DNA from: Naegleria gruberi
Lineage: Eukaryota
DNA: 64,000 nucleotides
Reading direction: 5' to 3' (one strand)
Assembly: GCA_000004985.1 (NCBI GenBank)
Contig: GG738854.1
The notes beneath the pieces were generated by a model that was not told the DNA's origin, did no database searches, and saw only the letters and a program-made list of their open reading frames with translations. The position numbers and the translations under genes were made by a program. Within the stretch, counting starts at the first letter, position 1, and each line of letters starts with the position of its first letter. This document shows positions 16,106 through 56,103 of the stretch, piece by piece.

Positions 16106-17428
16106 TTAGTTTTGATAAGGTTTCATTTCATAATCGGTGAAAGAAGGATACATGGATGATGATGGAGTGGAAATATTTTGAGAACTTTCCTGATAGTTGA
16201 ATGTTGGATTGATTTGATTTTCAATTATTGGAGGAAGAGTATATTTGTTGATTGCTTCAATGTACACTTGTGGATTGTTGGTTTTTTCGAGTAGAACTAA
16301 TGTTGAGGGAGGATTAGTTTCATGTTTCAATTCAATGCATAATTTAGAATGGGATGCTGTTAGGAAATGACTTTCGTTGTGATGTTCATCCTCAAAATCA
16401 TTCCAAGCTCTGGAAATTGACGAGAGTTCAATTGAGATTAATTCAACTTTCCAACCATTTGCCTTCATAATCATAATTTTCATATTTGTTAACAATACAT
16501 TAACACTAAATTTGTTAAAAGTATGTTTGTAAAATGCAATGAATATAACTAAACAGAGCCAAGCAGCACCAACGCTCAAAATGGAAGCAATTGTTAAAAA
16601 GGAAATTACTGTAAATAATATAAGTGGAATAATTGCAATGAGAATGTAAAATATTTTCATACGCCAAGAAATTCCACCCTCTTGATAAAATTCATGATAT
16701 TGCAATTCCTCATCTGAAATTAATTGGGATGCTGCAATATTTCTTTGATTAACATTACCAAATATGGATTTGGCATCTTTCAGTCCATTCCATTTTGAAA
16801 AAACTGATTCTCCTTGGACACTCTTCTCAAAATGTCCACAAAATAGAAAAACATCCTTTTCCCTTCCCTTATAACTCTTGAACATTACAATAAATATGGT
16901 CACACACTTGGCCACAGCAAGAGTCGCACCAATTGTAATACAGAAATAGATTAGCAAATTTCGTCCCCCAAAACTCTCAAATTCTGGATTGCTCATGAGT
17001 GAAATATCTTGATTTTTAACTTTTTCATGATTTCTCATCATTTGAAAAACATTTCCACGACAAGGAAACTGACCACCATAATATTTCTTACAAGTTTCTG
17101 CCTTGTTGGCCGAATCTGATCGACAAAATTCATTCCATTCCACTTGAGTTGGATAGCCCATCATGGAAACATTGGCATTATAAAAGTACACCAAGCCATC
17201 AGAGCTCGTTTTCATATTGGACAAGCTCTCCACTTGACATGTAAAACCTCTATAGTGCAACAATTGTGTCATGTCCAGAAATATACAGGACATGAAAAGA
17301 AACACTGCAGACACTAGCGGAATCACGAGTCTCGCAGCAATATTTCCACAATTGATATAGACCAGCTTTTTTGTGTGGTTAGATTCGGAAAGTGATGAAA
17401 AATTGGTGTGCTGCCGATTTATAGACAT
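16106..17428 (-). CDS. Polytopic membrane protein with a Cys-containing extracellular loop, function unknown
   Basis: ATG (minus) at 17428. Four clear hydrophobic helices: LVIPLVSAVFLFMSCIFL, LLIYFCITIGATLAVAKCVTIFIVMF, IFYILIAIIPLILFTVISFLTIASIL, GAAWLCLVIFIAFY. A Cys-rich loop lies between TM1 and TM2. Confidence 0.5.
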   Translation of the reverse strand: MSINRQHTNFSSLSESNHTKKLVYINCGNIAARLVIPLVSAVFLFMSCIFLDMTQLLHYRGFTCQVESLSNMKTSSDGLVYFYNANVSMMGYPTQVEWNEFCRSDSANKAETCKKYYGGQFPCRGNVFQMMRNHEKVKNQDISLMSNPEFESFGGRNLLIYFCITIGATLAVAKCVTIFIVMFKSYKGREKDVFLFCGHFEKSVQGESVFSKWNGLKDAKSIFGNVNQRNIAASQLISDEELQYHEFYQEGGISWRMKIFYILIAIIPLILFTVISFLTIASILSVGAAWLCLVIFIAFYKHTFNKFSVNVLLTNMKIMIMKANGWKVELISIELSSISRAWNDFEDEHHNESHFLTASHSKLCIELKHETNPPSTLVLLEKTNNPQVYIEAINKYTLPPIIENQINPTFNYQESSQNISTPSSSMYPSFTDYEMKPYQN

Positions 17429-28129: not shown

Positions 28130-31100
28130 ATGTCTGTTGCAGAAGCTTCTAATAATGGTGCAGCTGCAACTACATTTATTGAAAGGAGTATTAATTTTAA
28201 TGAATCATCAACCATACAACAATCATCATCACAACAACGAGAAAATCAACATGTGTCGGGAAGTTTTATAGGAAGCAATACGAGTAGTTCATCTAGCTCG
28301 ACCAATTTTTCAGCAACAATGATGAAAAGTATTAAGGAAGCTATTGTGTCCTATATAATTTCAATGCAATACAAGCCACTGAGGCAGGGCAAAAAGTTTA
28401 TGCTTCTCTCTGTTTTGTATCATTTGTATATAATGTGGATTTCCATCTTTTTACCAACACTAGGCGATTATAATTGGGGAGAATATGCAAATTGGATATT
28501 CAAGGCAGTAAATTATCCAGTAACCCTTTCACTAGATTTAATTCCCTATGGTGGCATTGAGGCTTTGGGAGCAATTGTGTTTGCAATCAGTGCCCTATCT
28601 GTTCTTGTTGTTATAATGGCAGTTGCGAGTGTTCATAGGACGAGTAAACACATTGAGAGGGTGAGATTAATAGTAATGGTGACTGGACTTGTTCTCTCTC
28701 TGTTGGGACCACTCTTTGCATTTATTCTGACGGGCTTTACAGATTGTGAATACAAGCAAAAGGTGTACTTTGAGAGTATAGATGATAAGGCATATGCTCT
28801 TTCTAGATATCCAGAAGCAGAGTGCTTTGGGGATAATATGTACCTTTACATTATTTCAATTATTGCAGTATTCGGAATTTGTCTATCCATATTATGCACC
28901 TTAATTTCCTTCTCATCAAGTTGGAAGAGTGACATGGTATTCAAAACAGTTGTCCATTATCCATTATCATACTTGGTTATTAGTAATATTCTTCAAATGT
29001 TCATCATGTATTTTATTCATGATGAGTTCATGTATGGAAGAGCAATCCTTCACTTGATTATTTCAGCAAGTTGGATTCCTATACTATTCTATGAACTGCC
29101 CTTCCAATACAGATATGAAAATTCAATTTATTCTGGAGTGGGTTTTGCAAGAATAGGAGCATCAATTGGTTCTCTGATATCTTCCCTTGCCAACTCAGCT
29201 GACAATTCAGGTTTTGGTTTGGGAATGTTTGGCTTAACGTTCGCTCTTATTATCATTTCATTCATTGGTGGAGTAATAGGAATGGAATTATACATTAGAT
29301 TATCTACTCACAAGATTAGAAGTTACATGTTGTCTATTGTTGAGAAAACTCTATCTGTTAGTGGATCATTGCCTTCGAAATTCAAAGAAAGAGCCAAATA
29401 CATTCTGGAAAAAGAGGCCACTTCAATTTACTCCCATTTCATTGAAACACAACAGGCAGGATATTTAAGAATATTTATTCGATTCAGCATTGATCAAAAC
29501 TCTAAAAACAGCTCAGAAGCCATCCTCACAAACACTGATTTATCTCTGTATTTCATTAAGGGTGCGTCAACTCAAAGATCATTCAACGATAGCAAAACTC
29601 TTCTCTATTCATCCATGTTAATTTATTTCAACTATGGAGATGGTAATTTAGGATCAATGTATGCAAAAGGGTTGTTGAAAATCTTGGCAAAGCAAAAATT
29701 GAATATACCAGAAGTAATTATGTTAACAGAGTTTTCTAAGGAAATTAAGGATGAGAATAGTGTAAATTCATCTGATCTCGAACAATTATTGAATAAGGTA
29801 GAGAGTAATATAGCTGAATTGAAGTCCCTCCATAAGGCCTTCTGGAAAGAATATTTGCAAGATGTAATTGAAGTGGGAACTTTGGAATCGATTAATAACA
29901 AGTGTTCACAACTGATGAGCCAATGCGAAACTATTTTCAATAATAGGCTTTCCAGATACAAACACAATAAGAATTTCCTCAGAGCGTATGCACAATTTTT
30001 AAACGAAATCAAATTTGACAAGGAAACTGCCTTTGAAATATTCCAAGACGCAGCCATTGTTGACGAAGATGAGCCATCTAAAAAACGTGTTCTTGCTAAG
30101 AGTAATTTATTCACAGAATATGGTAAACAGCATTCTGAAACCAATTTGGGGTTTTCTCTAGATGGCTTAAAGGCTAGCAACCAAAAGAGTATGGACATTG
30201 AAACAATTCATGAAGATCAAATGTTGGATGGAGTTGAGAATGATCCACTTGCAAAACGGGAGTTCATTTTCAAAAGTGCTCTCTCCCAACCACAACAAGG
30301 AGGATATCATATGGGATCTGTTATCCTGTTCTGCTTTATATCCTTCTCTTTTGTGCTCCTTGCCTTAGTTTTGAATGTTTATTATTCAGTGGAAGTTCTT
30401 TCAAATGTCAAGTTTGTTCAGCAAGTTTGTGAGCCAACTGTTTCTTCATATGCCATTTTGAAACAAATCAGAAATAATCAAATACTCCTTCAAGCTAAAA
30501 ATCAGGGTCTAGATGTTGATGAAACAGATATTATGGGTATTCTTAAGGACGAGACAAACGAAAATATTACTTCCATACAATCTGTTTGGAAGGAGAGACT
30601 TAATTTCTATGTTGAACATATTGAACATGTTAAAAAGATGTCACAAGGTAAAATTGTTGGAAAATTCACACCTGAAATGTATGAAGATTACAATAGTGAA
30701 ACAAATGAAATATTTGTTCCTGTGATTCAAACAAAGAATCAAAATTCATTCATTGAGGTCATTAAGAAGAATGTTTCACTCTCTGAAATATCATCACTCT
30801 TGATTGATATTGTTGAAAATTATCCATCAGGAGGATACAATGAAACATTGAAAGAATATGATTTCATGTTGGTATTCTTGAATAGGGAAACTTTCACAAA
30901 TGCCTTTGTGAAAACATGTTTCAGTTTCTTGGAAAGATGTGAACTTGACTCCAAAAATTTCAACAATTACTACCTATACTTTTATGTTTCTGTATTGTCA
31001 TTTTACATTCTTTACACAGCCATCTATATTCTCTATGTAAGAATTGAATTCTCATTTATCACTAGAACCATTAGATTAATGGAACGCAGTATTTCAAAGG

Positions 31101-33157
31101 ATATTGTAGGTAAAATCTATCAAGATTTGGCAAAGAAAGTAGAAGAAAATGCTTCTTTGGGATTTCTCAAATCAATAATCAGCCAACCAAAAGTGTTTTC
31201 TGTTTTTTGTATTGCTTGTTTGGCTTTTCTTACAATACTTGCATCTTCAATGATGTTCGTAGAGTTGAGAATTAATTCTGATCTAGGATATTCAACAATG
31301 TTGAGTGTGCATAAGACCGCCGAAAATCTTGTTTTGGTTCAGTCAATTGGATACAAACTAAATGAGATTTTCTTTTCCACTCTATCACCCTCTTTATATA
31401 ATGACCCTATCTTAATCAATGGAACCCTCTTAGATTATTACAGGGTGGAGGTGAGATACAATGTAACAGATTTGAGAAGAAGTTTTAACGAATTGATTTA
31501 TGGTAAGCTTGGAGGAAATTCAGCAATTTTAGGAATGATACCAAGAATTGATCAGATTATTACAGGAACTGATTGTTCTTCTGGCAATTGTACAAGTTTG
31601 GAAAACTCTTTGGACGAATTTACAATTGGATCTAGCAAGTTCAACGAAGATTTGCTTAAAGGAACTTTTACAGAGGAAGAGTTGGTTTTAAAGAATGCTG
31701 TTGTGGATGAATTGAGCCACCACCTAAGTGTAGACTTTCTTGAATTTTTGGCCTTGTTTACCATTGCAAGATCAATACCTTCTACTGCTATTGCACTAAT
31801 TTTCAGTATTCTTGGATTTCTCACAATAGTTATTTTCTATTGGTTACTGGTTCGAGTGTTTCAAATTCATTGGAATGATGTATTCCATTTAAGAAGCATG
31901 TTGAACTATGTAGATTATGACTACTTGGATTCTTATGACTCTTTAAGAAACTTTATTCTATACCATCAACTGCCTTCTAGAAACCTGTTCAAAAAGAAGA
32001 ATAAGATTGCCTCAGCAGAGGGTGACGAATCGAAGGTGAAGAATATTCTCAATGCAGCAGTTGACGGAGCTATTCTTTGTAATAGTACATGTGATATTGA
32101 AATATTCAATCCAGCAGCTCAAAGAATGTTTGGATGCAAACAATCAGATACTTTGGGAACTCCAATTTTCACTCTCTTTGATAAAGAATCGAGGACAGAG
32201 TTGGAGAGAGTCATTTCTGAATTGATTAAGAATGCCAAATCGACAACATCTTCTGAAAGTCTTGGTGAAACTGTTGAATTGGATTGTGTGAGAAAGAACT
32301 TGACAAAATTCCCTGCGAAAATCAATTTGTTCTCAACACTGTTTGATGGAAAACCAGTTGTGACATGTTTCATTAAGGATGCAACTTCTGAAAAGAAACA
32401 AAATGCATTGTTGGCTGAAGAAAAGAAAAAATCTGAAAATCTATTGAGATCTATTTTGCCAGAAAGTGTTGCCAATAGATTGAAATCTGGTGAAACATTC
32501 ATTGCTGAGAAATTTGCAGATATTACTTGTTTCTTTTCTGACATGGTTGGATTCACTCAAATGTCTTCAACTCTCAATCCAACTCAATTGGTTGGAATGT
32601 TAAATAATATTGTGAATGGATTTGATGCCTTAACAGACAAATATAGTTTGGAAAAGATCAAGACAATTGGAGATGCCTATTTCTGTGTTGGAGGAATTGG
32701 AAATACACAATCTGATCACCCAGAAAGAATACTTCGTTTCTCAATGGACATATTCTTAGTAGTACGTAACTATAACGAGGAGAATGGGAAAGAATTTGGA
32801 CATCAAATCAATATTCGAGTTGGAGTGAATACAGGAAGTGCAGTTGCAGGTGTGATTGGTACAAAGAAATTTGCCTATGATTTGTGGGGTGATACCATCA
32901 ACACTGCTTCTCGAATGGAATCAACATCAATTGCTGGAAGAATTCAAATTTCCAGATCAACTTATGAAAGAGTTTATGATATGGGTCTTGAATTTGAAGA
33001 AAGAAGTGTTGAAGCAAAAGGAAAGGGTTTGTGTCTCACTTATTTAGTCAAATCTCATCACCATGCACAGGCCATAGTTTCTGATAACGAAATCATTGAT
33101 TCTGACCTCGAGGTTTCCCTAACTACAAAACCAGAGGATGCAAAGGCAGAGATATAA
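28130..33157 (+). CDS. Multi-TM PAS-domain class III adenylyl cyclase (paralog A)
   Basis: ATG at 28130. Single 1,675-aa ORF. About 10-12 TM helices in the first 420 aa. Two further TM segments sit mid-protein. PAS-like segment ILNAAVDGAILCNSTCDIEIFNPAAQRMFGCKQSDTLGTPIFTLF. Cyclase domain LLRSILPESVANRLKSGE...FSDMVGFT...KIKTIGDAYF...YDLWGDTINTASRME has both metal-binding Asp, the transition-state N and R, and the K/D substrate pair that indicates ATP. Confidence 0.85.
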   Translation: MSVAEASNNGAAATTFIERSINFNESSTIQQSSSQQRENQHVSGSFIGSNTSSSSSSTNFSATMMKSIKEAIVSYIISMQYKPLRQGKKFMLLSVLYHLYIMWISIFLPTLGDYNWGEYANWIFKAVNYPVTLSLDLIPYGGIEALGAIVFAISALSVLVVIMAVASVHRTSKHIERVRLIVMVTGLVLSLLGPLFAFILTGFTDCEYKQKVYFESIDDKAYALSRYPEAECFGDNMYLYIISIIAVFGICLSILCTLISFSSSWKSDMVFKTVVHYPLSYLVISNILQMFIMYFIHDEFMYGRAILHLIISASWIPILFYELPFQYRYENSIYSGVGFARIGASIGSLISSLANSADNSGFGLGMFGLTFALIIISFIGGVIGMELYIRLSTHKIRSYMLSIVEKTLSVSGSLPSKFKERAKYILEKEATSIYSHFIETQQAGYLRIFIRFSIDQNSKNSSEAILTNTDLSLYFIKGASTQRSFNDSKTLLYSSMLIYFNYGDGNLGSMYAKGLLKILAKQKLNIPEVIMLTEFSKEIKDENSVNSSDLEQLLNKVESNIAELKSLHKAFWKEYLQDVIEVGTLESINNKCSQLMSQCETIFNNRLSRYKHNKNFLRAYAQFLNEIKFDKETAFEIFQDAAIVDEDEPSKKRVLAKSNLFTEYGKQHSETNLGFSLDGLKASNQKSMDIETIHEDQMLDGVENDPLAKREFIFKSALSQPQQGGYHMGSVILFCFISFSFVLLALVLNVYYSVEVLSNVKFVQQVCEPTVSSYAILKQIRNNQILLQAKNQGLDVDETDIMGILKDETNENITSIQSVWKERLNFYVEHIEHVKKMSQGKIVGKFTPEMYEDYNSETNEIFVPVIQTKNQNSFIEVIKKNVSLSEISSLLIDIVENYPSGGYNETLKEYDFMLVFLNRETFTNAFVKTCFSFLERCELDSKNFNNYYLYFYVSVLSFYILYTAIYILYVRIEFSFITRTIRLMERSISKDIVGKIYQDLAKKVEENASLGFLKSIISQPKVFSVFCIACLAFLTILASSMMFVELRINSDLGYSTMLSVHKTAENLVLVQSIGYKLNEIFFSTLSPSLYNDPILINGTLLDYYRVEVRYNVTDLRRSFNELIYGKLGGNSAILGMIPRIDQIITGTDCSSGNCTSLENSLDEFTIGSSKFNEDLLKGTFTEEELVLKNAVVDELSHHLSVDFLEFLALFTIARSIPSTAIALIFSILGFLTIVIFYWLLVRVFQIHWNDVFHLRSMLNYVDYDYLDSYDSLRNFILYHQLPSRNLFKKKNKIASAEGDESKVKNILNAAVDGAILCNSTCDIEIFNPAAQRMFGCKQSDTLGTPIFTLFDKESRTELERVISELIKNAKSTTSSESLGETVELDCVRKNLTKFPAKINLFSTLFDGKPVVTCFIKDATSEKKQNALLAEEKKKSENLLRSILPESVANRLKSGETFIAEKFADITCFFSDMVGFTQMSSTLNPTQLVGMLNNIVNGFDALTDKYSLEKIKTIGDAYFCVGGIGNTQSDHPERILRFSMDIFLVVRNYNEENGKEFGHQINIRVGVNTGSAVAGVIGTKKFAYDLWGDTINTASRMESTSIAGRIQISRSTYERVYDMGLEFEERSVEAKGKGLCLTYLVKSHHHAQAIVSDNEIIDSDLEVSLTTKPEDAKAEI

Positions 33158-33356
33158 TGAATCCATTTTGGTAATATAGAATCATTTTATTTGCCAATAT
33201 ATTTTCCTTTTTTGTCACTTAACGATTCTGACAACCAATGATGGCGATGTTAGTGAGTTACAGAAATGGCGGGTAAAACATGAAATCTCAATTCTTATTA
33301 AAAAAAACATCATTAACCCTTCTTGAATACAAAAAGATATTGGTTTGCTTTTTAAA

Positions 33357-36300
33357 ATGTCCGGGAGTGATGAGTTGGAGGCCTCTGCTATAGAAGACGA
33401 CCAAAGATCTAATTATTTCGAATCGAGGACTCATATGAAAGGAAATGGAGAAGGCTCAAGTATTGTTGGAAGTGCACTAAGTGTTCAATCGAATAATAGT
33501 ACAATAGCCTCGACAACTATGAGAACAGTGCAAACTGGAATATTGACTTTTATTTTGGCTCTACAGGATAAATCATACAAGAAATCAAAGAGGTTTATTT
33601 TTATTTCAATACTGTATCATTTGTATATCATTTGGACTTCAATCTTCTTACCAACACTAGGCGAATACAATTGGGGAGAGTATGGAAGTTGGATTTTCAA
33701 AGCACTTAATTATCCAATCACATTTTCATTAGATTTGGTGCCCTATGAAGAGAGTGCTGCAATTGCAGGTGTCATTATGGCTGTCATCTTGTTGGGTTTG
33801 TTTTTTGTGTCATTTTCTGCTTGGACTGTTTATAGAAATAGCAAGTTGGTTGAAAAGATGAAAGTGGTAATGGCTGTGTCGAGTTTGGTGTTTTCAGTGC
33901 TGAGCAAACCATTTGCTTTTGTTTTGGCTGGTTTTATTGATTGTGACTTTTCAAAGACAGTTTACTTTGAAGATATTGATGATAATACTAATGCACTTTC
34001 TCGATTCCAAACAGTTGCTTGTTTTGGAGGTAACACGTACTTGTATGCACTTTCGATTATTTCAATGCTTGCATTTTCTCTAGTGATACTTTCAACTCAT
34101 TTTGCCTATTCTCCTAGTTGGAGGAGTAAGGTTGTGTTTCATACAGTTGTTGGTTGGCCCATTACCTATTTGGTTATTTCAAACATGCTTGAGATTTATC
34201 TAATATTCTTTATTCCAAAATCTGAAATTTGGGCAAGAGCTACTTTACATTTGGTAGCAGCCCTGACATTTGTTCCAATGATTCTAATTACACTTCCCTT
34301 TCAGAGACGTATTGAAAATTCCTTCTATCTTGCTGTAGCTTTTGCAAAGGTTGGATCTTCAATTGGTTCACTCATTTCTTCCTTGGTCAATTCTAATAAT
34401 AAGTGGGATTTAGGTCTTGGAATGTCAGGTTTAACAATTGGTCTCATTATTTTAGGTTTCTGTGTTGGATTCATTGTGATGGAGTTGTATATACTAAGAA
34501 CAATGGCTTTCATTAGACACAAGATGATTAAGGCCATCGAGAGAGGAGTTTCCATTTCAGATACTGCTCAAACTCAACTTTCAGAGTCTGCAAAAATGGG
34601 CCTTGAAAGAGAAGCTACAAATATCTATTCCTCACTTCATGAATCACAAAGTTTGAACAAGCTCAAAATATTTATTAGGTTTAACATAATCCGAAGAAGC
34701 AAGCAAACAAAGGCAATACTAGACGATACGGATATGTGTCTCGCATTTATTAAGGGTGTTTCTCATCAGAAAACATTCAATGATCCTTCTCTAATATTGT
34801 TCTCCAGTTTACTTATCTATGTCAACCATCCAGATGAATCGAATAGCTCAATTTTTGCCAATAGTTTGTTGAAAAAAACTACGCGAGTCAAGTTATCATT
34901 CTTTGAGAAAGTTACCCTTGGTGAGGTTACCAAAGAATTGAACATCTCTAAAAATGGTAAAGTTGCAAGAAACACAACAGACTTGGAATCATTGCTAGTT
35001 AGAGTTGATTCAAATTTTTCGCAACTCAAATCTCTTCACAAATCCTTCTGGAAAGAATTTTTACAAGATGTTGTTGACACTACTAACTTGGAAGTTATCA
35101 ATAGTAAATGTGCTCAATTGATGGCTGACTCTGAAAATATTTTCCACAATAGAATTTCAAGATATAAGAATAACAAAACCTTCTTGAGATCATATGCTCG
35201 CTTTCTAGATGAAATCAAGTTTGACAAGGATCAAGCTGCTGAACTCTTCCAAGAAGCAGCAACTATGGAAGAGGAAGAGCTTGCCACAAAGAGAAGGAGG
35301 CAGAGAAAGTTTAGTCGTGTTGTGCCCTATGATGGACCTGTAGTAAGCGTTGAACCTCCTGCATTCTCTCTCGATGGGTTGAGAAAGGGAACAAATGAAC
35401 CAATTACAAACCTAATGGATGATGATTTTGATGATCATATGTTGGATGGTGTTGAGAATGAACCTGCAACTAAGAGAGAGTATGTTTTCAAAGCGGCTCT
35501 AGCACAAAAGACCAACGGAGAGTTGCACGTGGCCTCTGTAGTAATGTTCTGCCTTCTTTCATTTGCAATAATACTTGTTTCCCTTGTGTTGAATGTGTAT
35601 TATTCAGAGGAAGTTCTTTCAAATGTCAAGTTTGTCCAACAAGTTTGTGAACCAACTGTTTCTTCATATGCAATCTTGAAACAAATCAGAAATAATCAAA
35701 TACTAATCCAAGCAAAGAATCAGGGTATTGGTGTTCAGGAAGCTGAACTAATTGACGTCTTGGAAATAGAAACAGATAGCAACATTACTGTAACAAGTTT
35801 AAATGAGATTTGGAAGGAGAGACTTAATTTCTATGTTGAACATATTGAACATGTTAAAAAGATGTCACAAGGTAAAATTGTTGGAAAATTCACACCTGAA
35901 ATGTATGAAGATTACAATAGTGAAACAAATGAAGTATTTGTTCCTGTGATTCAAACAAAGAATCAAAATTCATTCATTGAGGTCATTAAGAAGAATGTTT
36001 CACTCTCTGAAATTTCATCACTCTTGATTGATATTGTTGAAAATTATCCATCAGGAGGATACAATGAAACATTGAAAGAATATGATTTCATGTTGGTATT
36101 CTTGAACAGGGAAACTTTCACAAATGCCTTTGTGAAAACATGTTTCAGTTTCTTGGAAAGATGTGAACTTGACTCTGTGCAATTTGATAACACTTTCCTC
36201 TATTTCTTTGTTGGTTCTGCCTGTTTTTATATTCTGTCCTCCCTAATTTACATTATTTACATCAGGATTCAATTCACTCTAGTTGCCAACACACTGGCAT

Positions 36301-38399
36301 TATACGAAAGACATTTAACAAAAGACTTGGTTGGTAAGATCTACCAAGAATTAGGAAAGAATGTTGATGAGAATTCTACCACTAGCTTCCTTAAATCTTT
36401 CATTACCAAACCAAAGGTATTTTCTTTTGTTTGTATCCTTTCTTTGGCTTTTCTTACAATTCTTGCATCATCAATGATGTTTTTGGAGTTGAGATTGAAC
36501 TCTGACTTGGGATTTTCAACCATGTTGAGTGTGCGCAAGACTGCAGAATCATTAGTGTTGGCCCAATCAATTGGGCACAAGTTGAATGAGCAGTTCATAT
36601 CAACACTTTCTTCATCTATTTACAATGATCCCTTGCTTGTAAACAACTCAACAATGAATCTATTCAGATATGAAGTGAGATATAATGTTACTGATTTTAG
36701 AAGAACATATAATGAGCTGATTTACGGAAAAATAGGAGTTTCACCAACCATTCTTGGCGCCATTCCAAAGATTGATGAAATTATTACAGGAACAGACTGT
36801 ACTGCTGGAAACTGCACAAGTTTGGAAAACACAGTCGATGAGTTCACTATTAAATCAAGCAAGTACAATGAGGATTTGATGAAAGGTGTTTTCTCTCCAG
36901 AGGAGCTAATTTTGAAAAACACAGTAGTTGATGGTTTGGTACATCATTTGTGTGTTGATTTGTTAGAGTTTTTGGCCTTGTTTACCATTGCTAGATCAAC
37001 ACCATCAACAATTATTGCACTTCTATTCGGTATATTTGGATTTTCTGCCGTAGTGTTATTTTTTGGCTTGTTGAACAAGGTGTTCCACAATCATTGGAAT
37101 GATATTTTCCATTTAAGAAACATGTTGAATTATGTTGGATATGATCACTTGGATTCCAGTGATCCTTTGAGAAACTATGCTTTGTACAATCAGTTACCAG
37201 GTAAGAATATATTCAAAAAGAAGAATAAGATTGCCTCAGCAGAGGGTGATGAATCCAAAGTAAGAAATATTCTCAATGCAGCAGTTGATGGAGCAGTGTT
37301 GTGTAACAGTGCATGCGATATTGAAATATTCAATCCAGCAGCTCAAAGAATGTTTGGATGCAAACAATCAGATACTTTGGGAACTCCAATTTTCACTCTC
37401 TTTGATAAAGAATCGAGGACAGAGTTGGAGAGAGTCATTTCTGACTTGATTAAGAATGCCAAATCGACAACATCTTCTGAAAGTCTTGGTGAAACTGTTG
37501 AATTGGATTGTGTGAGAAAGAACTTGACAAAATTCCCTGCAAAAATCAATTTGTTTTCAACACTGTTTGATGGAAAACCAGTTGTGACATGTTTCATTAA
37601 GGATGCAACTTCTGAAAAGAAACAAAATGCATTGTTGGCTGAAGAAAAGAAAAAGTCTGAAAATCTATTGAGATCTATTTTGCCAGAAAGTGTTGCCAAC
37701 AGATTGAAATCTGGTGAAACATTCATTGCTGAGAAATTTGCAGATATTACCTGTTTCTTTTCTGACATGGTTGGATTCACTCAAATGTCTTCAACCCTCA
37801 ATCCAACTCAATTGGTTGGAATGTTAAATAATATTGTGAATGGATTTGATGCCTTAACAGACAAATATAGTTTGGAAAAGATCAAGACAATTGGAGATGC
37901 CTATTTTTGTGTTGGAGGAATTGGAAATACACAATCTGATCACCCAGAAAGAATGCTTCGTTTCTCAATGGATATTTTCCAAATATTGAGAACCTACAAT
38001 GAACAGAATAGAAAGGAATTTGGACATCAAATCAATATTCGAGTTGGAGTGAATACAGGAAGTGCAGTTGCAGGTGTGATTGGTACAAAGAAATTTGCCT
38101 ATGATTTGTGGGGTGATACCATCAACACTGCTTCTCGAATGGAATCGACATCAATTGCTGGAAGAATTCAAATTTCCAGATCAACTTATGAAAGAGTTTA
38201 TGATATGGGTCTTGAATTTGAAGAAAGAAGTGTTGAAGCAAAAGGAAAGGGTTTGTGTCTCACTTATTTAGTCAAATCTCATCACCATGCTCAAGCAATC
38301 ATTACGGATGATGTTGTTGATTTTGTTCCAGAAGAAGAAAAGGATGAGCAAGACTTGGAAGTAAGCTATCCTGTTAGGTCCAGTAAAGATGAAGAATAA
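33357..38399 (+). CDS. Multi-TM PAS-domain class III adenylyl cyclase (paralog B, tandem duplicate)
   Basis: First ATG at 33357 (MSGSDELEA). The ORF-track start at 33345 is a TTG. Same architecture as paralog A. The N-terminal half is roughly 50-60% identical to A at protein level. The 3' ~1.1 kb and an internal ~0.37-kb block are >=99% identical to A at nucleotide level. Confidence 0.85.
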   Translation: MSGSDELEASAIEDDQRSNYFESRTHMKGNGEGSSIVGSALSVQSNNSTIASTTMRTVQTGILTFILALQDKSYKKSKRFIFISILYHLYIIWTSIFLPTLGEYNWGEYGSWIFKALNYPITFSLDLVPYEESAAIAGVIMAVILLGLFFVSFSAWTVYRNSKLVEKMKVVMAVSSLVFSVLSKPFAFVLAGFIDCDFSKTVYFEDIDDNTNALSRFQTVACFGGNTYLYALSIISMLAFSLVILSTHFAYSPSWRSKVVFHTVVGWPITYLVISNMLEIYLIFFIPKSEIWARATLHLVAALTFVPMILITLPFQRRIENSFYLAVAFAKVGSSIGSLISSLVNSNNKWDLGLGMSGLTIGLIILGFCVGFIVMELYILRTMAFIRHKMIKAIERGVSISDTAQTQLSESAKMGLEREATNIYSSLHESQSLNKLKIFIRFNIIRRSKQTKAILDDTDMCLAFIKGVSHQKTFNDPSLILFSSLLIYVNHPDESNSSIFANSLLKKTTRVKLSFFEKVTLGEVTKELNISKNGKVARNTTDLESLLVRVDSNFSQLKSLHKSFWKEFLQDVVDTTNLEVINSKCAQLMADSENIFHNRISRYKNNKTFLRSYARFLDEIKFDKDQAAELFQEAATMEEEELATKRRRQRKFSRVVPYDGPVVSVEPPAFSLDGLRKGTNEPITNLMDDDFDDHMLDGVENEPATKREYVFKAALAQKTNGELHVASVVMFCLLSFAIILVSLVLNVYYSEEVLSNVKFVQQVCEPTVSSYAILKQIRNNQILIQAKNQGIGVQEAELIDVLEIETDSNITVTSLNEIWKERLNFYVEHIEHVKKMSQGKIVGKFTPEMYEDYNSETNEVFVPVIQTKNQNSFIEVIKKNVSLSEISSLLIDIVENYPSGGYNETLKEYDFMLVFLNRETFTNAFVKTCFSFLERCELDSVQFDNTFLYFFVGSACFYILSSLIYIIYIRIQFTLVANTLALYERHLTKDLVGKIYQELGKNVDENSTTSFLKSFITKPKVFSFVCILSLAFLTILASSMMFLELRLNSDLGFSTMLSVRKTAESLVLAQSIGHKLNEQFISTLSSSIYNDPLLVNNSTMNLFRYEVRYNVTDFRRTYNELIYGKIGVSPTILGAIPKIDEIITGTDCTAGNCTSLENTVDEFTIKSSKYNEDLMKGVFSPEELILKNTVVDGLVHHLCVDLLEFLALFTIARSTPSTIIALLFGIFGFSAVVLFFGLLNKVFHNHWNDIFHLRNMLNYVGYDHLDSSDPLRNYALYNQLPGKNIFKKKNKIASAEGDESKVRNILNAAVDGAVLCNSACDIEIFNPAAQRMFGCKQSDTLGTPIFTLFDKESRTELERVISDLIKNAKSTTSSESLGETVELDCVRKNLTKFPAKINLFSTLFDGKPVVTCFIKDATSEKKQNALLAEEKKKSENLLRSILPESVANRLKSGETFIAEKFADITCFFSDMVGFTQMSSTLNPTQLVGMLNNIVNGFDALTDKYSLEKIKTIGDAYFCVGGIGNTQSDHPERMLRFSMDIFQILRTYNEQNRKEFGHQINIRVGVNTGSAVAGVIGTKKFAYDLWGDTINTASRMESTSIAGRIQISRSTYERVYDMGLEFEERSVEAKGKGLCLTYLVKSHHHAQAIITDDVVDFVPEEEKDEQDLEVSYPVRSSKDEE

Positions 38400-43108: not shown

Positions 43109-44537
43109 ATATATTCCTCACTGTGATCCATAATTCTTACAATTTCCAACTCATTATTGATCTCTCTCACGTTTGCTACATAACTGAAAGGACAGTATAT
43201 TTGAAAACTCCATCACATCTAGTCAGTTGTAAATATTTTCATTTTCAGTTCTTTCCAAATTCTTAAGAATCGTAACAATAAATCTATTTCATCAAAGGAA
43301 CTTTCAAGATTCTAAAAGAATGAGGGTAGTATGTCCCTTGCCGAATGGAGGGAATTATGATTTTCCATCATAAAATATAAATTCCAATTTCATGATGATC
43401 ATCTACTAATAAAAATTACTATTATTACTACTATTTAGATCACGCTGAGATGATGATGTGAAAGTTTGGTGCCTTCATGATGAAAAACCACTACGAAAAT
43501 CAGCAATGCCACAAAGTACCATTGTTATTGAATATTTTTTTCACATTCCAATTTTCAAAATAATTTTTCAAGCATTATTTCGTGATATTGAATAATAATT
43601 ATCGGTTTGTTGCTGCATTAAGTATCTATATGAATAGAACATTTATGTTGAATGGTTTTCACATATTGCAAAACAATCATCACACCACATTATTTATTAA
43701 CTTAGCTGGTGTTGATTGTTTTGCAAAAGTCGAAAAAATATCAAGAAAATTTTCATCAAATACATGTCTCTTGCTCGGCGATGATTTTCAAGGACAATTC
43801 TTCATCATTGTTAAAGCCACTTTCTGTGCAGTAGGATTGGATAGTTTGGAGTGTATAGATATTGGTTTTTTAATATTTCATCATGAATTACAAATTTTGG
43901 AAGGCAATTATTAATTTTATGGAAACTTTTGTCGAGTTGGAGAAGTAAAACCATAATTAATTGTTCATCATAGTTATGAATATAACAACCCAAACTGATG
44001 CGAGTGTTTAAATTCAAGAATAACCTCATCAAGTTTTTAATTTAAATATTTCATCATGATCAACAACAACCTGAGCAATAAGACCATTATGGTCTTGTTC
44101 TAAATCATCAAGAGTATCACCCTGGAAAGTTTCAAAACTTTTCTTCGAGTACATTCTCTCCTGTAGAGCATGTTAGCAAAACCTAGAAATTCGCAAGAAA
44201 CACTTGAAAAACTTGTTCAATTTCACGAGGAGGGCAAAGATTTATTATTGTACCACATCAGGAAGGATGTTATTGCAGTGTTTTTCAACTTTTTTCCAGA
44301 GATTGGTCAAGTTGAATTTTTACATGCTTCCCAACATTAATTATTCATCATCTACTTGGTCATTCTTCATCAATACAACAATAAATACATTGATATCTAA
44401 CACCAATGTTCATCTTGTTGTTTCACTTCAAAAGATAGCCAAGATAATCACTCAACCTCCCACCAACAACAATTTTCCATCAAATTTTCCTCTTCACAAA
44501 ATTCCTTTTTTTATGAATTCCTTTTTATGAAACTGTA

Positions 44538-48975: not shown

Positions 48976-50130
48976 TCATCCTGGTCTGTCTCGTGATTCG
49001 TACATTTTCTTGACGAGTGAGAGAACTAGTTTCTTTTCTCTGCTTGCCTTTCTCTTAAGCTTGTATTTGAGTTTGACTTCTTGTTGCTCTTTCAATCCTT
49101 CAACTGAGAGTTGAACTATTTCAACCATTTCCTTTCCATTTTCATTGGCTTCAATTACATTGGTTGAAACAATGATTGGTGGATTATCGAGCAAGAGTTC
49201 CATATAATTTAACAAGCTCTTTCCATTAGCAATCAGTCCTGCAGCCTTTTGTAACAATTCTCCATCTTCAGAATTGAGGATTTGAATCTTGACATTCTCA
49301 ATAATTTCTTTCTCTTCAGAAATTCTATCAAGTTCAACCTCATAAGATTCCATAATGAAGTTATACTCCATCATCAATTGCAAAAAGGTGTTAGTTGTTG
49401 CACCTGAAAGAATTGTCAATGATCCAAGAATAGTATCACGTTGATAGAGATCTGTAATAGCTGACATTACGTGATTAATTGTTGCTTTGAAGAGATTCAA
49501 TTCTACATCATTCAATCTTTGTTCCATATTAACCAATTGCATCTTGGCTCTAATGTATTCACTTTGAGCTTCTGTGAATAATTGTTTAAGTGCTGAAAGT
49601 TTCATCACAACTGGTCCACCAAGATTCAAGAGGTCATTAGTATCCATCTTGATCAAAAGAGTATCGTTAATGAAAGCTTGCTCTCTTCTCATATTTTCAA
49701 ATGCAACACCGACTGCCTTTTCTGCTTCTGCCATCTGTTGATATTTCAACTTAATTGAGGCTCGTAATTCTTCCATTTGCTTGGTCAATTCAGGATATTC
49801 CAAGAAGGAATTCATCTTTTCCTTTCCAATTTCCTTCAATGTCTTATTAACCATTTGTTCCATTCCTTCCGAAATAATCTTGGCAACTTGTTCAACCTTT
49901 TGTCCTCTCTTCTCTGCAAATTCGTTATACTTTTTTGTAAATTCTTCATTCACACGATCGAATTTTTCAATAGTATCAACCAAGTTATTCAACTTTCCGA
50001 CAATGGATTGTTGAGAGTGTTCCAAGCCATCCAACGAACGCTTAAGTTTCTTCATTCCAGACTTGATGTGCTTGAGTGTTGTTTCGCTCATTTTGTTTTT
50101 TGGAGTGTTGAATAAACCAGCAAACAACAT
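48976..50130 (-). CDS. Coiled-coil protein, function unknown
   Basis: First ATG (minus) at 50130 (MLFAGLFNTPKNKMSE). A TTG codon precedes it in frame. The protein is about 384 aa with long heptad-repeat segments and many E/K/Q residues. Confidence 0.5.
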   Translation of the reverse strand: MLFAGLFNTPKNKMSETTLKHIKSGMKKLKRSLDGLEHSQQSIVGKLNNLVDTIEKFDRVNEEFTKKYNEFAEKRGQKVEQVAKIISEGMEQMVNKTLKEIGKEKMNSFLEYPELTKQMEELRASIKLKYQQMAEAEKAVGVAFENMRREQAFINDTLLIKMDTNDLLNLGGPVVMKLSALKQLFTEAQSEYIRAKMQLVNMEQRLNDVELNLFKATINHVMSAITDLYQRDTILGSLTILSGATTNTFLQLMMEYNFIMESYEVELDRISEEKEIIENVKIQILNSEDGELLQKAAGLIANGKSLLNYMELLLDNPPIIVSTNVIEANENGKEMVEIVQLSVEGLKEQQEVKLKYKLKRKASREKKLVLSLVKKMYESRDRPG

Positions 50131-50361
50131 CAAAAGAATAAACGTAAATCTAGCTGTTGTATTGAAGAAGATCTCTTCCTTGAAAAGGATTTTGATATTC
50201 GCATCTATTAAAATACTAATATGTCCTCGTGAATTACTATAATCGAAATTCAGAACAAAAGTTCACCACAGAGATATATTTTACACTTGCAACAGTAAGA
50301 AGAAGTCACCACCTCACACCAAGACAAATCAAAAAAACAAACCTTAAGCGAGTAACTCAAA

Positions 50362-54474: not shown

Positions 54475-54491
54475 ATATTCTTCAAGAATTG

Positions 54492-55613
54492 ATGAACAAG
54501 TTGAGTGAAGAGTCTATTTCTCATTTGAAATCAGCTCAATCACTAGCCATTCAAGCAGAAAAGAGATTTAATACTGCTGTTCATGAATGTCAAGATCAAC
54601 TTCATTCAGTGATGAGAATTCAAAATCAAGGAGTGAACAATATGATCTATGATTTAATGAATCTCTCAAAGGACAATGAAGATATGAACTTGTTAGAAAG
54701 TCAAGTTGAAGCACTAGCTAAAGAAAGAAGCAGTGTTCTTGAACAACTCATGAATTTTAACAAACCATTAGCTTCAGTGGTTGATTCATCCGATGATTCT
54801 GACGATGATTCTGACTCAGACTCTGACGATTCTGATTCAGACTCTGATGATGAGCTTTTGATGGGTGGAAATATCAAACAAGTCAAACAACAATTAACAA
54901 ACTTGGAAGCAAAACTTGACGCTACAATTAAAAAGATGCAAGATGATTTGAAAGATCTAGAAAAATCAAGAACATCTATCTCACCAAGCAAGCCAAGAAT
55001 TACTCTTAATCAAATCATTCAAAACTCTGTTAATGAATTAGGAGCAGTGATGAAACAAAATAATATTAACTTTGACAAGTTTGTAAAATCATGGAATCAA
55101 TTAAAATCGAACCAACATGAATTGCATCAAAGTATGAACAAGGATATGAAGGAAATGAAGGAAAGAGCTAGAAAGTTTGATGAACATGGAGCTAAACTTA
55201 TTACCATTGCCAAAAAGAGTAACATTTACTCGAAGAATTATTCTAATCTCATTAGATATCAATTTGAAAATAGTATTGCCAGTTTGGGAATTTCTATTGC
55301 TGAGGCTTGTGTGAATGTTGCTCAAAATGTTACAAAGGATGTTCTTGAAGGGTTAAGAATGATAATTACTACATTGTTAAAGTCATTCGGAATTACATAT
55401 ATGGAAGCTAGGGCAATTATTAAATGCAAAGAAAAAGATTTCAGATTCCGTCTCAAGATGAGAGGTTATATTAATTACAATAATAACAAAACGGATTGGG
55501 GTTTCGAATTTGATTTGGATTTCAGAAAGTGGAATGAAATGATTGTAGCATTCTTCAAATACTTGTTAAATGAATTCTGTAAACTCACTGGATTTAAGAA
55601 CCCTTTTAATTAA
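54492..55613 (+). CDS. Coiled-coil, acidic-repeat protein segment. It is probably the C-terminal part of the 50362..54474 gene, separated from it by a frameshift
   Basis: First ATG at 54492. The ORF-track start at 54489 is a TTG. It carries the acidic tract DSSDDSDDDSDSDSDDSDSDSDDE. Frame 3 upstream of the ATG (from about 54426) reads SFKRAEKDVEEENKALDILQELMNKL, which overlaps the end of the previous ORF. A 17-nt intergenic spacer is implausible in this genome. Confidence 0.5.
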   Translation: MNKLSEESISHLKSAQSLAIQAEKRFNTAVHECQDQLHSVMRIQNQGVNNMIYDLMNLSKDNEDMNLLESQVEALAKERSSVLEQLMNFNKPLASVVDSSDDSDDDSDSDSDDSDSDSDDELLMGGNIKQVKQQLTNLEAKLDATIKKMQDDLKDLEKSRTSISPSKPRITLNQIIQNSVNELGAVMKQNNINFDKFVKSWNQLKSNQHELHQSMNKDMKEMKERARKFDEHGAKLITIAKKSNIYSKNYSNLIRYQFENSIASLGISIAEACVNVAQNVTKDVLEGLRMIITTLLKSFGITYMEARAIIKCKEKDFRFRLKMRGYINYNNNKTDWGFEFDLDFRKWNEMIVAFFKYLLNEFCKLTGFKNPFN

Positions 55614-56103
55614 TAAACAATTGCGAAATTTATCCTTATGGTCATAACTACCATGTGTTTCTTTTCCACAATTGGTCTCTCATCTATATTCTATAAGAGT
55701 TGACTCTTTCTACCTGATTTCAATTCAGATAGTTTCCAAAATTTGTACAACACTTCCAAACAATCATGATGTCAATCCCTCCTCATATCATGAAGTGAGG
55801 AATCATATTTATATGAAGAATAACCTCAGAATAATGCCACGTCTGGAGATTGGCTTCACACTTAAATTTAAGCAATTTGGAAAAATATCATTCATCATTA
55901 AACTCACAAGAAATCAAACCGTATTGGTATTTTCAATTCCAATCGAATAAATAGCATTAGAAATCAAACAAGCAATTGTTTAATATTAAAAAACATCTTG
56001 AAATGAATCAAAATAAAATCAGTAAGCAACATAAAATGAAGTTTGGTTATCGTTCCGTACTCACTAGATCTTCATTATTATTGATCTACATAATCATTGA
56101 TAT

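What the first reader, a model, noticed from the sequence alone, without database searches (positions are those of the whole stretch)
28130..38399. Tandem PAS-adenylyl-cyclase paralogs with a mosaic of near-identical tracts, suggesting ongoing gene conversion
The two 5-kb genes are head-to-tail and 187 bp apart. Over most of their length they are clearly diverged. The N-terminal TM regions are roughly 50-60% identical at amino-acid level, with many synonymous and non-synonymous differences. Three blocks are almost identical at nucleotide level:
- A 32040-32745 matches B 37265-37970. This covers the PAS domain and the first half of the cyclase domain, with about 8 mismatches in ~700 bp.
- A 32796-33075 matches B 38021-38300 with about 1-4 mismatches.
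- Internal A 30593-30965 matches B 35812-36184 with 3 mismatches.
A 50-bp diverged patch sits between the first two blocks (IFLVVRNYNEENGKEFG versus IFQILRTYNEQNRKEFG). The sequence flanking the internal block on its 5' side (A 30388-30490 versus B 35608-35710) is about 94% identical. Antisense ORFs 32119..32556 and 37343..37780 differ by one residue only because of this.
The pattern fits repeated non-reciprocal exchange (concerted evolution) that keeps the catalytic and PAS modules homogeneous while the membrane 'sensor' halves diverge.
Basis: seen in the sequence. Interest (0 to 1): 0.6.

Follow-up and report, generated by a model that had tools for sequence, protein, structure and literature searches.

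The report
Gene conversion between tandem Naegleria cyclases
Two neighbouring, anciently duplicated adenylyl-cyclase genes of the amoeba Naegleria gruberi share a few stretches that are 99% identical in DNA because one copy has recently been pasted over the other, which is a real but ordinary and well-known process.

Summary
The window is Naegleria gruberi NEG-M: gene B is 100% identical to XP_002680274.1.

- **Genes.** A (28130-33157) and B (ATG 33357-38399) lie head to tail. Both have a TmcB-like membrane region, a PAS domain and a class III adenylyl cyclase domain.
- **Tracts.** Three tracts are 99.1% identical (1268/1280 nt): A 30585-30951, 32093-32730 and 32792-33066, each at +5224 in B. 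The rest of the alignment is 61% identical.
- **Not protein constraint.** Synonymous divergence is 0.03-0.05 in the tracts and saturated elsewhere. The test on same-amino-acid codons gives Fisher p = 2e-70. Tract 1 is only 56% identical in protein to the third paralogue.
- **Edges.** Edges are sharp at the DNA level. Two left-edge blocks are significantly older than the tracts.

Interlocus gene conversion between tandem paralogues is the best explanation, and it was probably recurrent.

One homogenised zone is a predicted ectodomain loop, and a 61-bp diverged island sits inside the cyclase domain.

Read-level validation of the assembly and comparison with related strains were not possible.

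This is a new example of a known process, of low to moderate interest. In passing, the window ends in a (TTTGGG)n telomere about 25 kb downstream.

The parts
28130..33157 (+). Gene A. Intronless ORF of 1675 aa: N-terminal multi-pass membrane region, TPR_TmcB (aa 540-647), further transmembrane helices and loops, PAS (aa 1303-1419), signalling helix, class III cyclase (aa 1459-1641).
   Evidence: ORF. Pfam hits. Hydropathy transmembrane candidates. The exact product is not in the public protein collection.
33357..38399 (+). Gene B, 1680 aa, with the same architecture as A. It is N. gruberi NAEGRDRAFT_47156 / XP_002680274.1.
   Evidence: 100% identity over 1680 aa to P0001. Accessions. Pfam hits.
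33158..33356 (.). 199-bp spacer between A and B. It has no similarity to the sequence upstream of A or downstream of B.
   Evidence: blastn with word size 7 found only chance-level matches.
30585..30951 (+). Tract T1 in A, matching B 35809-36175. 3 mismatches in 367 nt. Lies in the loop between the transmembrane helices at about aa 730-748 and 952-970.
   Evidence: dS 0.044 against saturated flanks. Only 56% protein identity to paralogue C and 24% to N. fowleri.
35809..36175 (+). Tract T1 in B.
32093..32730 (+). Tract T2 in A, matching B 37317-37954. 8 mismatches in 638 nt. Covers most of the PAS domain, the signalling helix and the first half of the cyclase domain (aa 1322-1534).
   Evidence: dS 0.053.
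37317..37954 (+). Tract T2 in B.
32731..32791 (+). Unconverted island in A, matching B 37955-38015. 18 of 61 nt differ, with 7 non-synonymous differences and saturated synonymous sites. It encodes the segment between the IGDAY and INIRVGVNTG motifs of the cyclase domain.
   Evidence: Same-amino-acid codons are identical in 6 of 13 cases, which is the background level.
32792..33066 (+). Tract T3 in A, matching B 38016-38290. 1 mismatch in 275 nt. Covers the second half of the cyclase domain to its end (aa 1555-1646). The right edge is sharp: the next four codons (AQAI) keep the amino acids, but all four differ synonymously.
   Evidence: dS 0.033.
38016..38290 (+). Tract T3 in B.
30380..30490 (+). 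Older or eroding converted block in A, matching B 35598-35708 at offset +5218. 9 of 111 nt differ.
   Evidence: Same-amino-acid codons are identical in 29 of 35 cases (binomial p = 6e-5). The block is significantly more diverged than T1-T3 (p = 1e-5). It merges with T1 into one significant low-dS zone, 30380-30949.
30491..30584 (+). Diverged gap inside zone 1. It contains a 6-bp indel that shifts the register from +5218 to +5224.
   Evidence: Same-amino-acid codons are identical in 8 of 15 cases, the background level.
31988..32092 (+). Left edge of zone 2. A 38-bp exact block (31988-32025) is followed by 67 bp at background synonymous divergence. 15 of 105 nt differ overall.

Best explanation
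**What it is.** A and B are old tandem duplicates of a Naegleria gruberi membrane PAS-adenylyl cyclase. Their synonymous sites are saturated almost everywhere.

**The process.** In two zones the DNA of one copy has recently been copied over the other. The zones are A 30380-30951, a loop between two transmembrane helices, and A 31988-33066, which covers PAS, the signalling helix and the cyclase domain. The process is interlocus (non-allelic) gene conversion, meaning homologous-recombination repair that uses the neighbouring paralogue 5.2 kb away as template. It left three tracts of 275-638 bp that are 99% identical.

**Why probably recurrent (inferred).**
- The rest of the genes, at 61% identity, is far too diverged to support homologous recombination.
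- The zones were therefore most likely kept similar by repeated conversion ever since the duplication.
- Other segments escaped early and diverged beyond the reach of recombination.
- The intermediate-age blocks at the left edges are parts of the zones that are now escaping.
- The short diverged gaps act as barriers, or are kept different. One contains a 6-bp indel. The other has 7 amino-acid differences in a segment of the cyclase domain.

**Shown versus inferred.** Shown: the mosaic, its restriction to DNA-level tracts, and the youth of the tracts. Inferred: the recombination mechanism, recurrence, and any role for selection.
For: **Identity of the locus.** The window is N. gruberi NEG-M and the two genes are separate loci with different flanks. 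No N gap lies in 28130-38399.

**The tracts are not protein constraint.**
- Nucleotide identity is 99.06% in the tracts and 61.1% outside.
- Nei-Gojobori dS is 0.044, 0.053 and 0.033 in T1, T2 and T3. Elsewhere pS is 0.75-0.93, which is saturated.
- Same-amino-acid codons are identical in 401 of 413 cases in the tracts and 330 of 658 outside (Fisher p = 2e-70).
- Four-fold degenerate sites are identical in 152 of 158 cases in the tracts and 93 of 209 outside (p = 4e-29).
- The longest run of identical synonymous codons is 72. The maximum over 10,000 permutations was 39.
- Perfect protein conservation with random synonymous codons would give only 80-82% nucleotide identity, with a maximum of 88%.
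- T1 is only 56% identical in protein to paralogue C and 24% to N. fowleri.

**Tract properties.**
- Edges are sharp at the nucleotide level, even where the amino acids continue to be conserved.
- Only two zones have significantly low synonymous divergence.
- Differences inside the tracts are 10 transitions to 2 transversions, against 600:840 outside (p = 0.006). This is what young, real substitutions look like.
- T1-T3 are equally young (chi-square p = 0.42). The edge blocks are significantly older (p = 1e-5 and 5e-11).

**Fit to what is known.**
- Tract lengths, close tandem arrangement and dependence on identity match what is reviewed for interlocus conversion. Tracts run from about 50 to several hundred bp. 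Conversion occurs mainly above about 80% identity. The minimal efficient processing segment is about 200 bp (PMC3924818).
- Mosaic divergence in tandem paralogues is a described outcome (bioRxiv 10.1101/2025.10.29.685298).
- Naegleria genomes encode RAD51, DMC1, MSH2/6, MLH and PMS (PMC9928731).
Against: - No reads were available, so an assembly or consensus artefact in the 2010 Sanger draft cannot be formally excluded.
- No orthologous locus from a close relative was available, so the classical phylogenetic test could not be run. That test asks whether paralogues group by species inside tracts and by orthologue outside them.
  - N. fowleri has a single, very distant copy.
  - Two metagenome scans found nothing.
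- DNA of paralogue C was not retrievable. Donor and acceptor could therefore not be polarised, and C could not be excluded as a donor at the DNA level.
- The three young tracts have statistically the same age. A single complex event would fit them as well as several events.
- There is no GC3 rise in the tracts (0.26 against 0.32), so no signature of GC-biased conversion.
Confidence: 0.85

Rival explanations
1. One single, recent, complex recombination event created all three young tracts. Candidates are a long heteroduplex with patchy mismatch repair, or template switching during repair. On this view there has been no long-running concerted evolution.
For: T1, T2 and T3 have indistinguishable divergence: 3/367, 8/638 and 1/275 (chi-square p = 0.42). 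T2 and T3 are separated by only 61 bp.
Against: - T1 and T2 are separated by 1.1 kb of synonymously saturated sequence.
- The edge blocks 30380-30490 and 31988-32092 are significantly older than the tracts, so there are at least two ages.
- Starting recombination between sequences about 61% identical would be very inefficient (PMC3924818). The zones must already have been similar, which implies earlier homogenisation.
Confidence: 0.2
2. Assembly artefact. Reads from the two copies were mixed in the consensus of the Sanger draft, making moderately similar regions look nearly identical.
For: The assembly is a draft with gaps: a 3.3-kb N run lies at 59655-62957. No read data were available to check.
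Against: - The region 28130-38399 is gap-free.
- The tracts are 275-638 bp long and flanked by sequence that is only about 60% identical. Sanger reads would be expected to be anchored by those unique flanks (my inference; read lengths were not checked here).
- 12 paralogue-specific, transition-biased and mostly synonymous differences are kept inside the tracts.
- Both ORFs stay intact.
- Reads would be mixed only if the copies were already about 97% or more identical (my inference). The artefact could therefore sharpen the pattern but not create it.
Confidence: 0.05
3. Unequal crossing-over in the tandem array, producing hybrid genes followed by copy loss, made the mosaic rather than non-crossover conversion.
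For: Tandem head-to-tail paralogues 5.2 kb apart are a substrate for unequal exchange. It is part of the same recombination family and is modelled together with conversion.
Against: - A single crossover gives one junction per hybrid gene.
- Here both genes keep their own diverged sequence on both sides of at least three separate tracts.
- That would need six or more precisely placed exchanges and restoration of a two-copy array.
Confidence: 0.05
4. The tracts are held identical by strong purifying selection. The selection would act either on the protein or on an overlapping nucleotide-level function such as the antisense ORFs or an RNA element.
For: T2 and T3 cover the most conserved protein modules: protein identity to C is 78-79%. 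145-aa antisense ORFs exist at 32119-32556 and 37343-37780.
Against: - Protein constraint cannot hold synonymous sites. The expected identity is 80-82%, against 99% observed.
- T1 is poorly conserved in C and in N. fowleri.
- At the T3 right edge the amino acids stay conserved while every codon changes.
- The antisense ORFs cover only part of T2 and none of T1 or T3.
Confidence: 0.01

Closest known systems
Interlocus (non-allelic) gene conversion giving mosaic divergence in tandem paralogues, for example HMA4 in Arabidopsis halleri (bioRxiv 10.1101/2025.10.29.685298), GOT1 paralogues in Tigriopus (PMC3728101), and the general review PMC3924818
   Same: - Close tandem paralogues.
- Sharply bounded tracts of a few hundred bp with near-zero synonymous divergence in a diverged background.
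- Islands of divergence inside homogenised zones.
   Different: - The background here is saturated at synonymous sites (61% nucleotide identity), so the contrast is extreme.
- The organism (a heterolobosean amoeba) and the gene family are new for this phenomenon, as far as my literature searches show.
- There are no population or cross-species data here.
Tandem arrays of receptor-type adenylate cyclases (GRESAG4) in Trypanosoma brucei, with documented gene conversion (PMC1855330). Gene conversion has also been suggested for Leishmania receptor cyclases (cited in PMC7719234).
   Same: - Protist adenylyl cyclase families.
- Tandem copies, with gene conversion reported in an adenylate cyclase array (figure 4 legend).
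- The T. brucei paper finds conversion in many tandem arrays.
   Different: - The protein architecture differs. The Naegleria proteins have about 10-12 predicted transmembrane helices, TPR_TmcB and PAS. The single-transmembrane, periplasmic-binding-protein-like ectodomain architecture of trypanosomatid receptor cyclases is from my own knowledge.
- The trypanosome arrays are much less diverged: the values tabulated for GRESAG4 arrays are 0.03-0.10.
- This is an analogy, not family membership.
TmcB-like / PAS / class III cyclase proteins, a family seen in Naegleria and in unnamed database proteins
   Same: - A and B have the same Pfam architecture as N. gruberi NAEGRDRAFT_72627 and N. fowleri FDP41_012829.
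- All six distant representatives tested match it, one lacking a cyclase hit and two with the cyclase cut off at the end of the protein.
   Different: Nothing is known here about conversion in other members. The function of the membrane module is unknown.

Membership tests
Interlocus gene conversion between paralogues | Two non-allelic copies in one genome | tested here: met
   Head-to-tail ORFs with unrelated flanks and spacer. Identity outside the tracts is 61%.
Interlocus gene conversion between paralogues | Discrete tracts whose divergence, including at synonymous sites, is significantly below that of the flanking paralogous sequence | tested here: met
   dS 0.03-0.05 against a saturated background. 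Fisher p = 2e-70 and the permutation test. Segmentation into two significant zones.
Interlocus gene conversion between paralogues | Pattern not explained by selective constraint | tested here: met
   Simulation of perfect protein conservation gives at most 88% identity. T1 is 56% identical to C and 24% to N. fowleri. The edge at 33066 falls within conserved amino acids.
Interlocus gene conversion between paralogues | Phylogenetic incongruence: paralogues group within species inside tracts and by orthologue outside them | not testable with these tools
   No orthologous two-copy locus was available. N. fowleri has one distant copy. The metagenome scans were empty.
Interlocus gene conversion between paralogues | Non-reciprocal transfer with an identifiable donor and acceptor | not testable with these tools
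   This needs DNA of an outgroup paralogue or orthologue. DNA of C could not be retrieved.
Interlocus gene conversion between paralogues | Both copies verified at read level, with no assembly collapse | not testable with these tools
   No reads. The indirect evidence is in favour: a gap-free region and 12 retained transition-biased differences.
Class III adenylyl cyclase (homodimeric type) | Cyclase catalytic domain above Pfam threshold | tested here: met
   PF00211 scores 174.6 and 178 bits against a cut-off of 21.9.
Class III adenylyl cyclase (homodimeric type) | Both metal-binding Asp, the adenine-specifying Lys and Asp, and the transition-state Asn and Arg, all in one domain | tested here: met
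   - The alignment to AC9 C1 and C2 places FSDMVGFT and TIGDAY on the corresponding C1 motifs FADIVGFT and TLGDCYY.
- It places KIKTIGDAY and YDLWGDTINTASRM on the corresponding C2 motifs KIKTIGATYM and YDIWGDTVNIASRM.
- The roles of these residues come from established knowledge of class III cyclases.
- All the residues lie inside T2 or T3 and are identical in A and B.
Class III adenylyl cyclase (homodimeric type) | cAMP-forming activity and dimerisation | not testable with these tools
   Needs biochemistry.
PAS-domain sensor proteins | PAS fold above Pfam threshold | tested here: met
   PAS_9 scores 49.3 and 48.3 bits against a cut-off of 27. PAS scores 28.8 and 27.8 bits against 22.6. Cofactor or ligand unknown.
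TmcB-like membrane proteins | TPR_TmcB region and multi-pass membrane body | tested here: met
   PF25474 scores 48.3 and 49.6 bits against a cut-off of 27. There are 11-12 hydropathy transmembrane candidates. 128 related representatives were found, and six of six tested share the TPR_TmcB and PAS architecture (five also have a cyclase hit).
Trypanosomatid receptor-type adenylate cyclases (ESAG4 / GRESAG4) | Single transmembrane helix with a large periplasmic-binding-protein-like ectodomain, no PAS | tested here: not met
   The architecture here is multi-pass with TPR_TmcB and PAS. This family is only an analogue for cyclase arrays undergoing conversion.

The most novel reading that the evidence does not exclude
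The partition between homogenised and diverged segments may be maintained by selection rather than being a passive by-product of recombination.
- Conversion would keep the PAS, signalling-helix and cyclase dimerisation modules and one ectodomain loop identical. A and B could then still form A/B heterodimers.
- Conversion events reaching into the other membrane and ectodomain segments would be purged, because those parts have acquired different sensing or regulatory functions. The same would apply to events reaching into the 61-bp island, which carries 7 amino-acid differences inside the cyclase domain.
- The island would then mark a functionally diverged regulatory surface, as in the 'island of divergence' model of Teshima and Innan (cited via PMC3728101).
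Probability: 0.12. Interest if true: 0.45.

Novelty: new member of a known kind. Interest (0 to 1): 0.25.

Why it matters
- **Clean example.** This is an unusually high-contrast case of interlocus gene conversion: 99% against 61% identity with base-pair-sharp edges. It occurs in a heterolobosean amoeba, a lineage for which my literature searches found no such case.
- **Practical warning.** In phylogenies and orthology calls for the very large Naegleria cyclase family, C-terminal domains of tandem copies will look like recent duplicates while the N-terminal halves say otherwise.
- **Evidence of recombination.** It gives indirect evidence that homologous-recombination repair between nearby paralogues operates in N. 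gruberi.
- **Experimental lead.** The 61-bp island offers a small, testable candidate for functional divergence between the two enzymes.
- **Limit.** It does not reveal a new mechanism.

Tried and rejected
1. **DNA of the third paralogue and other assemblies.** I looked for DNA of paralogue C (P0002) and for independent assemblies of A or B with the look-up of encoding contigs. None is on record.
2. **Relatives in metagenomes.**
   - A protein-based scan with A aa 743-1300 matched 309 patterns but found no true relative.
   - A degenerate DNA pattern for EFGHQINIRVGVNT gave 0 hits.
   - Cross-species comparison was therefore impossible.
3. **Synteny with N. fowleri.** The locus L001 shares only the cyclase gene itself, as a single copy.
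4. **Structure of the loop domain.** AlphaFold2 on the transmembrane 7-8 loop (A aa 745-955, 4-sequence alignment) gave mean pLDDT 45.8. That is unusable, so no fold search was run.
5. **Search with the C-terminal 389 aa.**
   - It found other N. gruberi PAS-cyclases at 62% identity or less, so there is no other near-identical donor among annotated proteins.
   - It inexplicably did not list B or C, although they are 97% and 78% identical in that region.
   - I therefore treat absences in that tool's output as weak evidence.
6. **GC-biased conversion.** GC3 is lower, not higher, in the tracts.
7. **Weaker similarity peaks.** The peaks at 28400-28519 and 31160-31300 are not significant at synonymous sites (p = 0.06 and 0.24). 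I attribute them to protein constraint, not conversion.
8. **Rejected explanations.**
   - Alleles misplaced in tandem: synonymous saturation rules this out.
   - Pseudogenisation: both ORFs are intact, and pN is well below pS outside the tracts.
   - Functional antisense genes.
Full report
**Source and genes**

The window is a scaffold of Naegleria gruberi NEG-M. The product of ORF B, read from ATG 33357, is 100% identical over 1680 aa to XP_002680274.1 / NAEGRDRAFT_47156. Gene A (28130-33157, 1675 aa) and gene B (33357-38399, 1680 aa) lie head to tail.

Both are single uninterrupted ORFs with the same Pfam architecture:
- TPR_TmcB at about aa 540-647
- PAS_9 / PAS at about aa 1303-1419
- a weak HNOBA-type signalling-helix hit
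- Guanylate_cyc at aa 1459-1641

Hydropathy gives about 11-12 candidate transmembrane helices. The cyclase domain aligns to both C1 and C2 of mammalian AC9. It carries the two metal-binding Asp, the Lys and Asp that specify adenine, and the Asn and Arg, all in one domain (residue roles are from established knowledge of class III cyclases). It is therefore predicted to be a homodimeric adenylyl cyclase.

The same membrane-module, PAS and cyclase architecture recurs elsewhere:
- a third N. gruberi paralogue, C (NAEGRDRAFT_72627), which has the three Pfam families and is 42-44% identical to A and B outside the tracts
- a single N. fowleri gene, 28% identical
- dozens of unnamed database representatives

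**Checking the observation**

A protein-guided codon alignment gives 70.9% nucleotide identity overall, but the distribution is bimodal. Three tracts are nearly identical, all in register A+5224:

| Tract | A coordinates | Mismatches |
|---|---|---|
| T1 | 30585-30951 | 3/367 |
| T2 | 32093-32730 | 8/638 |
| T3 | 32792-33066 | 1/275 |

Together the tracts are 99.06% identical, against 61.1% for the remaining 3706 aligned positions.

- The diverged patch between T2 and T3, the roughly 91%-identical block at 30388-30490 and the one-residue difference between the antisense ORFs are all confirmed.

**Is it more than chance or constraint?**

- Synonymous divergence (Nei-Gojobori) is 0.044, 0.053 and 0.033 in T1, T2 and T3. 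Everywhere else the proportion of synonymous differences is 0.75-0.93, which is saturated.
- Among codons that encode the same amino acid in both genes, 401 of 413 are identical inside the tracts and 330 of 658 outside (Fisher p = 2e-70).
- At four-fold degenerate sites, 152 of 158 are identical inside the tracts and 93 of 209 outside (p = 4e-29).
- The longest run of identical synonymous codons is 72. The maximum over 10,000 permutations was 39.
- If the proteins were perfectly conserved but synonymous codons were drawn from the genes' own usage, nucleotide identity would be 80-82% and never above 88%.
- T1 is not a conserved protein segment. It is 56% identical to C and 24% to N. fowleri.
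- At the right edge of T3 the amino acids AQAI continue to be conserved, yet all four codons differ synonymously. The boundary is a property of the DNA, not of the protein.
- A maximal-segment scan on synonymous codons finds only two significant zones, A 30380-30949 and A 31988-33064.
- Weaker similarity peaks at 28400-28519 and 31160-31300 are not significant at synonymous sites and reflect ordinary protein constraint.
- The spacer and the outer flanks of the two genes share nothing.

**Anatomy of the two zones**

Zone 1 (aa 751-940) is essentially the whole loop between the transmembrane helices at about aa 730-748 and 952-970. Counting back from the cytosolic PAS-cyclase end, this loop is predicted to be extracytoplasmic, and it contains N-X-S/T sequons and conserved cysteines. 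The topology is my inference. An AlphaFold model of the loop was too poor to use (pLDDT 46).

Zone 1 consists of three parts:
- an older block, 30380-30490, with 9 of 111 nt different
- a fully diverged 94-bp gap containing a 6-bp indel
- T1

Zone 2 (aa 1287-1645) covers PAS, the signalling helix and the cyclase domain up to its last residue. It consists of five parts:
- a 38-bp exact block
- 67 bp at background synonymous divergence
- T2
- a 61-bp island (18 differences, 7 of them non-synonymous, synonymous sites saturated)
- T3

This follows.

Further properties of the tracts:
- T1, T2 and T3 are equally young (p = 0.42).
- The left-edge blocks are significantly older (p = 1e-5 and 5e-11).
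- The 12 differences inside the tracts are 10 transitions and 2 transversions, mostly synonymous. Outside the ratio is 600:840. This is what a few real, recent substitutions look like.

**Mechanism**

The pattern is the textbook signature of interlocus (non-allelic) gene conversion between close tandem paralogues.
- Tract sizes of a few hundred bp match the review in PMC3924818, as do the tandem arrangement and the dependence on pre-existing identity.
- Mosaic divergence of tandem paralogues through conversion is an explicitly modelled outcome.
- Naegleria genomes encode the recombination and mismatch-repair genes needed (PMC9928731).

Conversion is inefficient below about 80% identity and needs roughly 200 bp of good homology, and the background here is 61%. 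I therefore infer that the zones have been kept similar by repeated conversion since the duplication. A one-off event between long-diverged sequences is less likely. On this view the older edge blocks are parts now escaping, and the diverged gaps act as barriers: an indel in zone 1, and clustered amino-acid differences in zone 2. Recurrence is an inference. A single complex event would also explain the three equally young tracts, and I give that about 0.2.

The central claim of gene conversion stands. The gloss that catalytic and PAS modules are kept homogeneous while the membrane sensor halves diverge is only partly right, for three reasons:
- One homogenised zone is a loop of the membrane half, probably an ectodomain.
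- The second large loop (about aa 1044-1205) lies in a stretch that is diverged at synonymous sites.
- The cyclase domain contains an unconverted island.

Nothing here shows that homogeneity is selected. Conversion confined to what is still similar is self-reinforcing and needs no selection.

The island could be a selected 'island of divergence' in the sense of Teshima and Innan (via PMC3728101), and identical dimerisation modules could preserve A/B heterodimerisation. That is the most novel reading not excluded, and I rate it at about 0.12.

**What could not be done**

- No reads were available, so assembly error is argued against only indirectly. The region is gap-free, unique flanks surround tracts of 275-638 bp, and paralogue-specific differences are retained.
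- DNA for paralogue C and any independent assembly of the locus were not retrievable.
- No close relative was found in two metagenome scans.
- N. fowleri has one distant, non-syntenic copy.
- The phylogenetic and donor/acceptor tests therefore remain open.

**Comparison with what is known, and novelty**

My searches found no report of gene conversion in Naegleria nuclear gene families or in its cyclases. The process itself is thoroughly known, including in tandem adenylate-cyclase arrays of Trypanosoma brucei (PMC1855330), whose proteins have a different architecture. This is a new, very clear member of a known kind, not a new mechanism.

**Context noticed in passing**

The window ends in about 59 copies of TTTGGG (63650-64000). 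This is the candidate N. gruberi telomere repeat (PMC3622300). It is preceded by an AT-rich, repeat-bearing, gapped sub-terminal region. The cyclase pair therefore lies about 25-36 kb from a chromosome end. I did not check here whether such regions recombine more often in N. gruberi.

Noticed in passing
window 63650-64000: About 59 tandem copies of TTTGGG (98% matches). The G-rich strand runs 5'->3' to the end of the window. TTTGGG was proposed as the N. gruberi telomere repeat (PMC3622300). The cyclase pair therefore lies about 25-36 kb from a probable chromosome end.
   Followed up: partly
window 56000-63650: AT-rich sub-terminal region (GC 0.25-0.29). It holds a 321-bp unit repeated twice (56117-56762, 96-98% identity), repeats about 1.5 kb apart (57688-59654, 73-88% identity), and a 3.3-kb run of N (59655-62957) marking an assembly gap.
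   Followed up: no
window 28130-33157 (gene A): The exact 1675-aa product of this intact ORF is not in the 15-billion-protein collection. No hit above 66% identity was returned for it, whereas B and C are present as XP_002680274.1 and XP_002672419.1. Gene A may lack a public protein model. The evidence is weak, because the same search tool also failed to list B and C in a later query.
   Followed up: partly
window 28367-31879 (membrane module of A): An exhaustive HMMER search found 128 cluster representatives related to the membrane module. Many are 1400-1800 aa long. All six tested carry TPR_TmcB and PAS, and five also a cyclase domain. The fusion of a TmcB-like membrane body with PAS and cyclase is therefore a sizeable, uncharacterised family. 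The organisms are not given by the tool.
   Followed up: partly
L001 10001-15612 (N. fowleri VFQX01000016.1): N. fowleri has a single homologue (FDP41_012829, 1779 aa). Its gene span of 5612 bp is longer than its coding length, so it probably contains introns. Its neighbours are unrelated to those in the N. gruberi window. The A/B/C duplications therefore postdate the split of the two species.
   Followed up: partly
window 6362-6507 and 43361-43506: Inverted repeat of 146 nt, 76% complementary, with arms 36.9 kb apart. It may be a dispersed repeat or a chance match.
   Followed up: no
window 50362-54474: A 1370-aa ORF with no Pfam match at E <= 1e-4. Several other long ORFs also have no family assignment: 16106-17428 (-), 48976-50133 (-) and 54489-55613 (+).
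   Followed up: no
window 29632-30198 (-): A 188-aa antisense ORF inside the diverged part of gene A, with no counterpart in B. Probably spurious.
   Followed up: no
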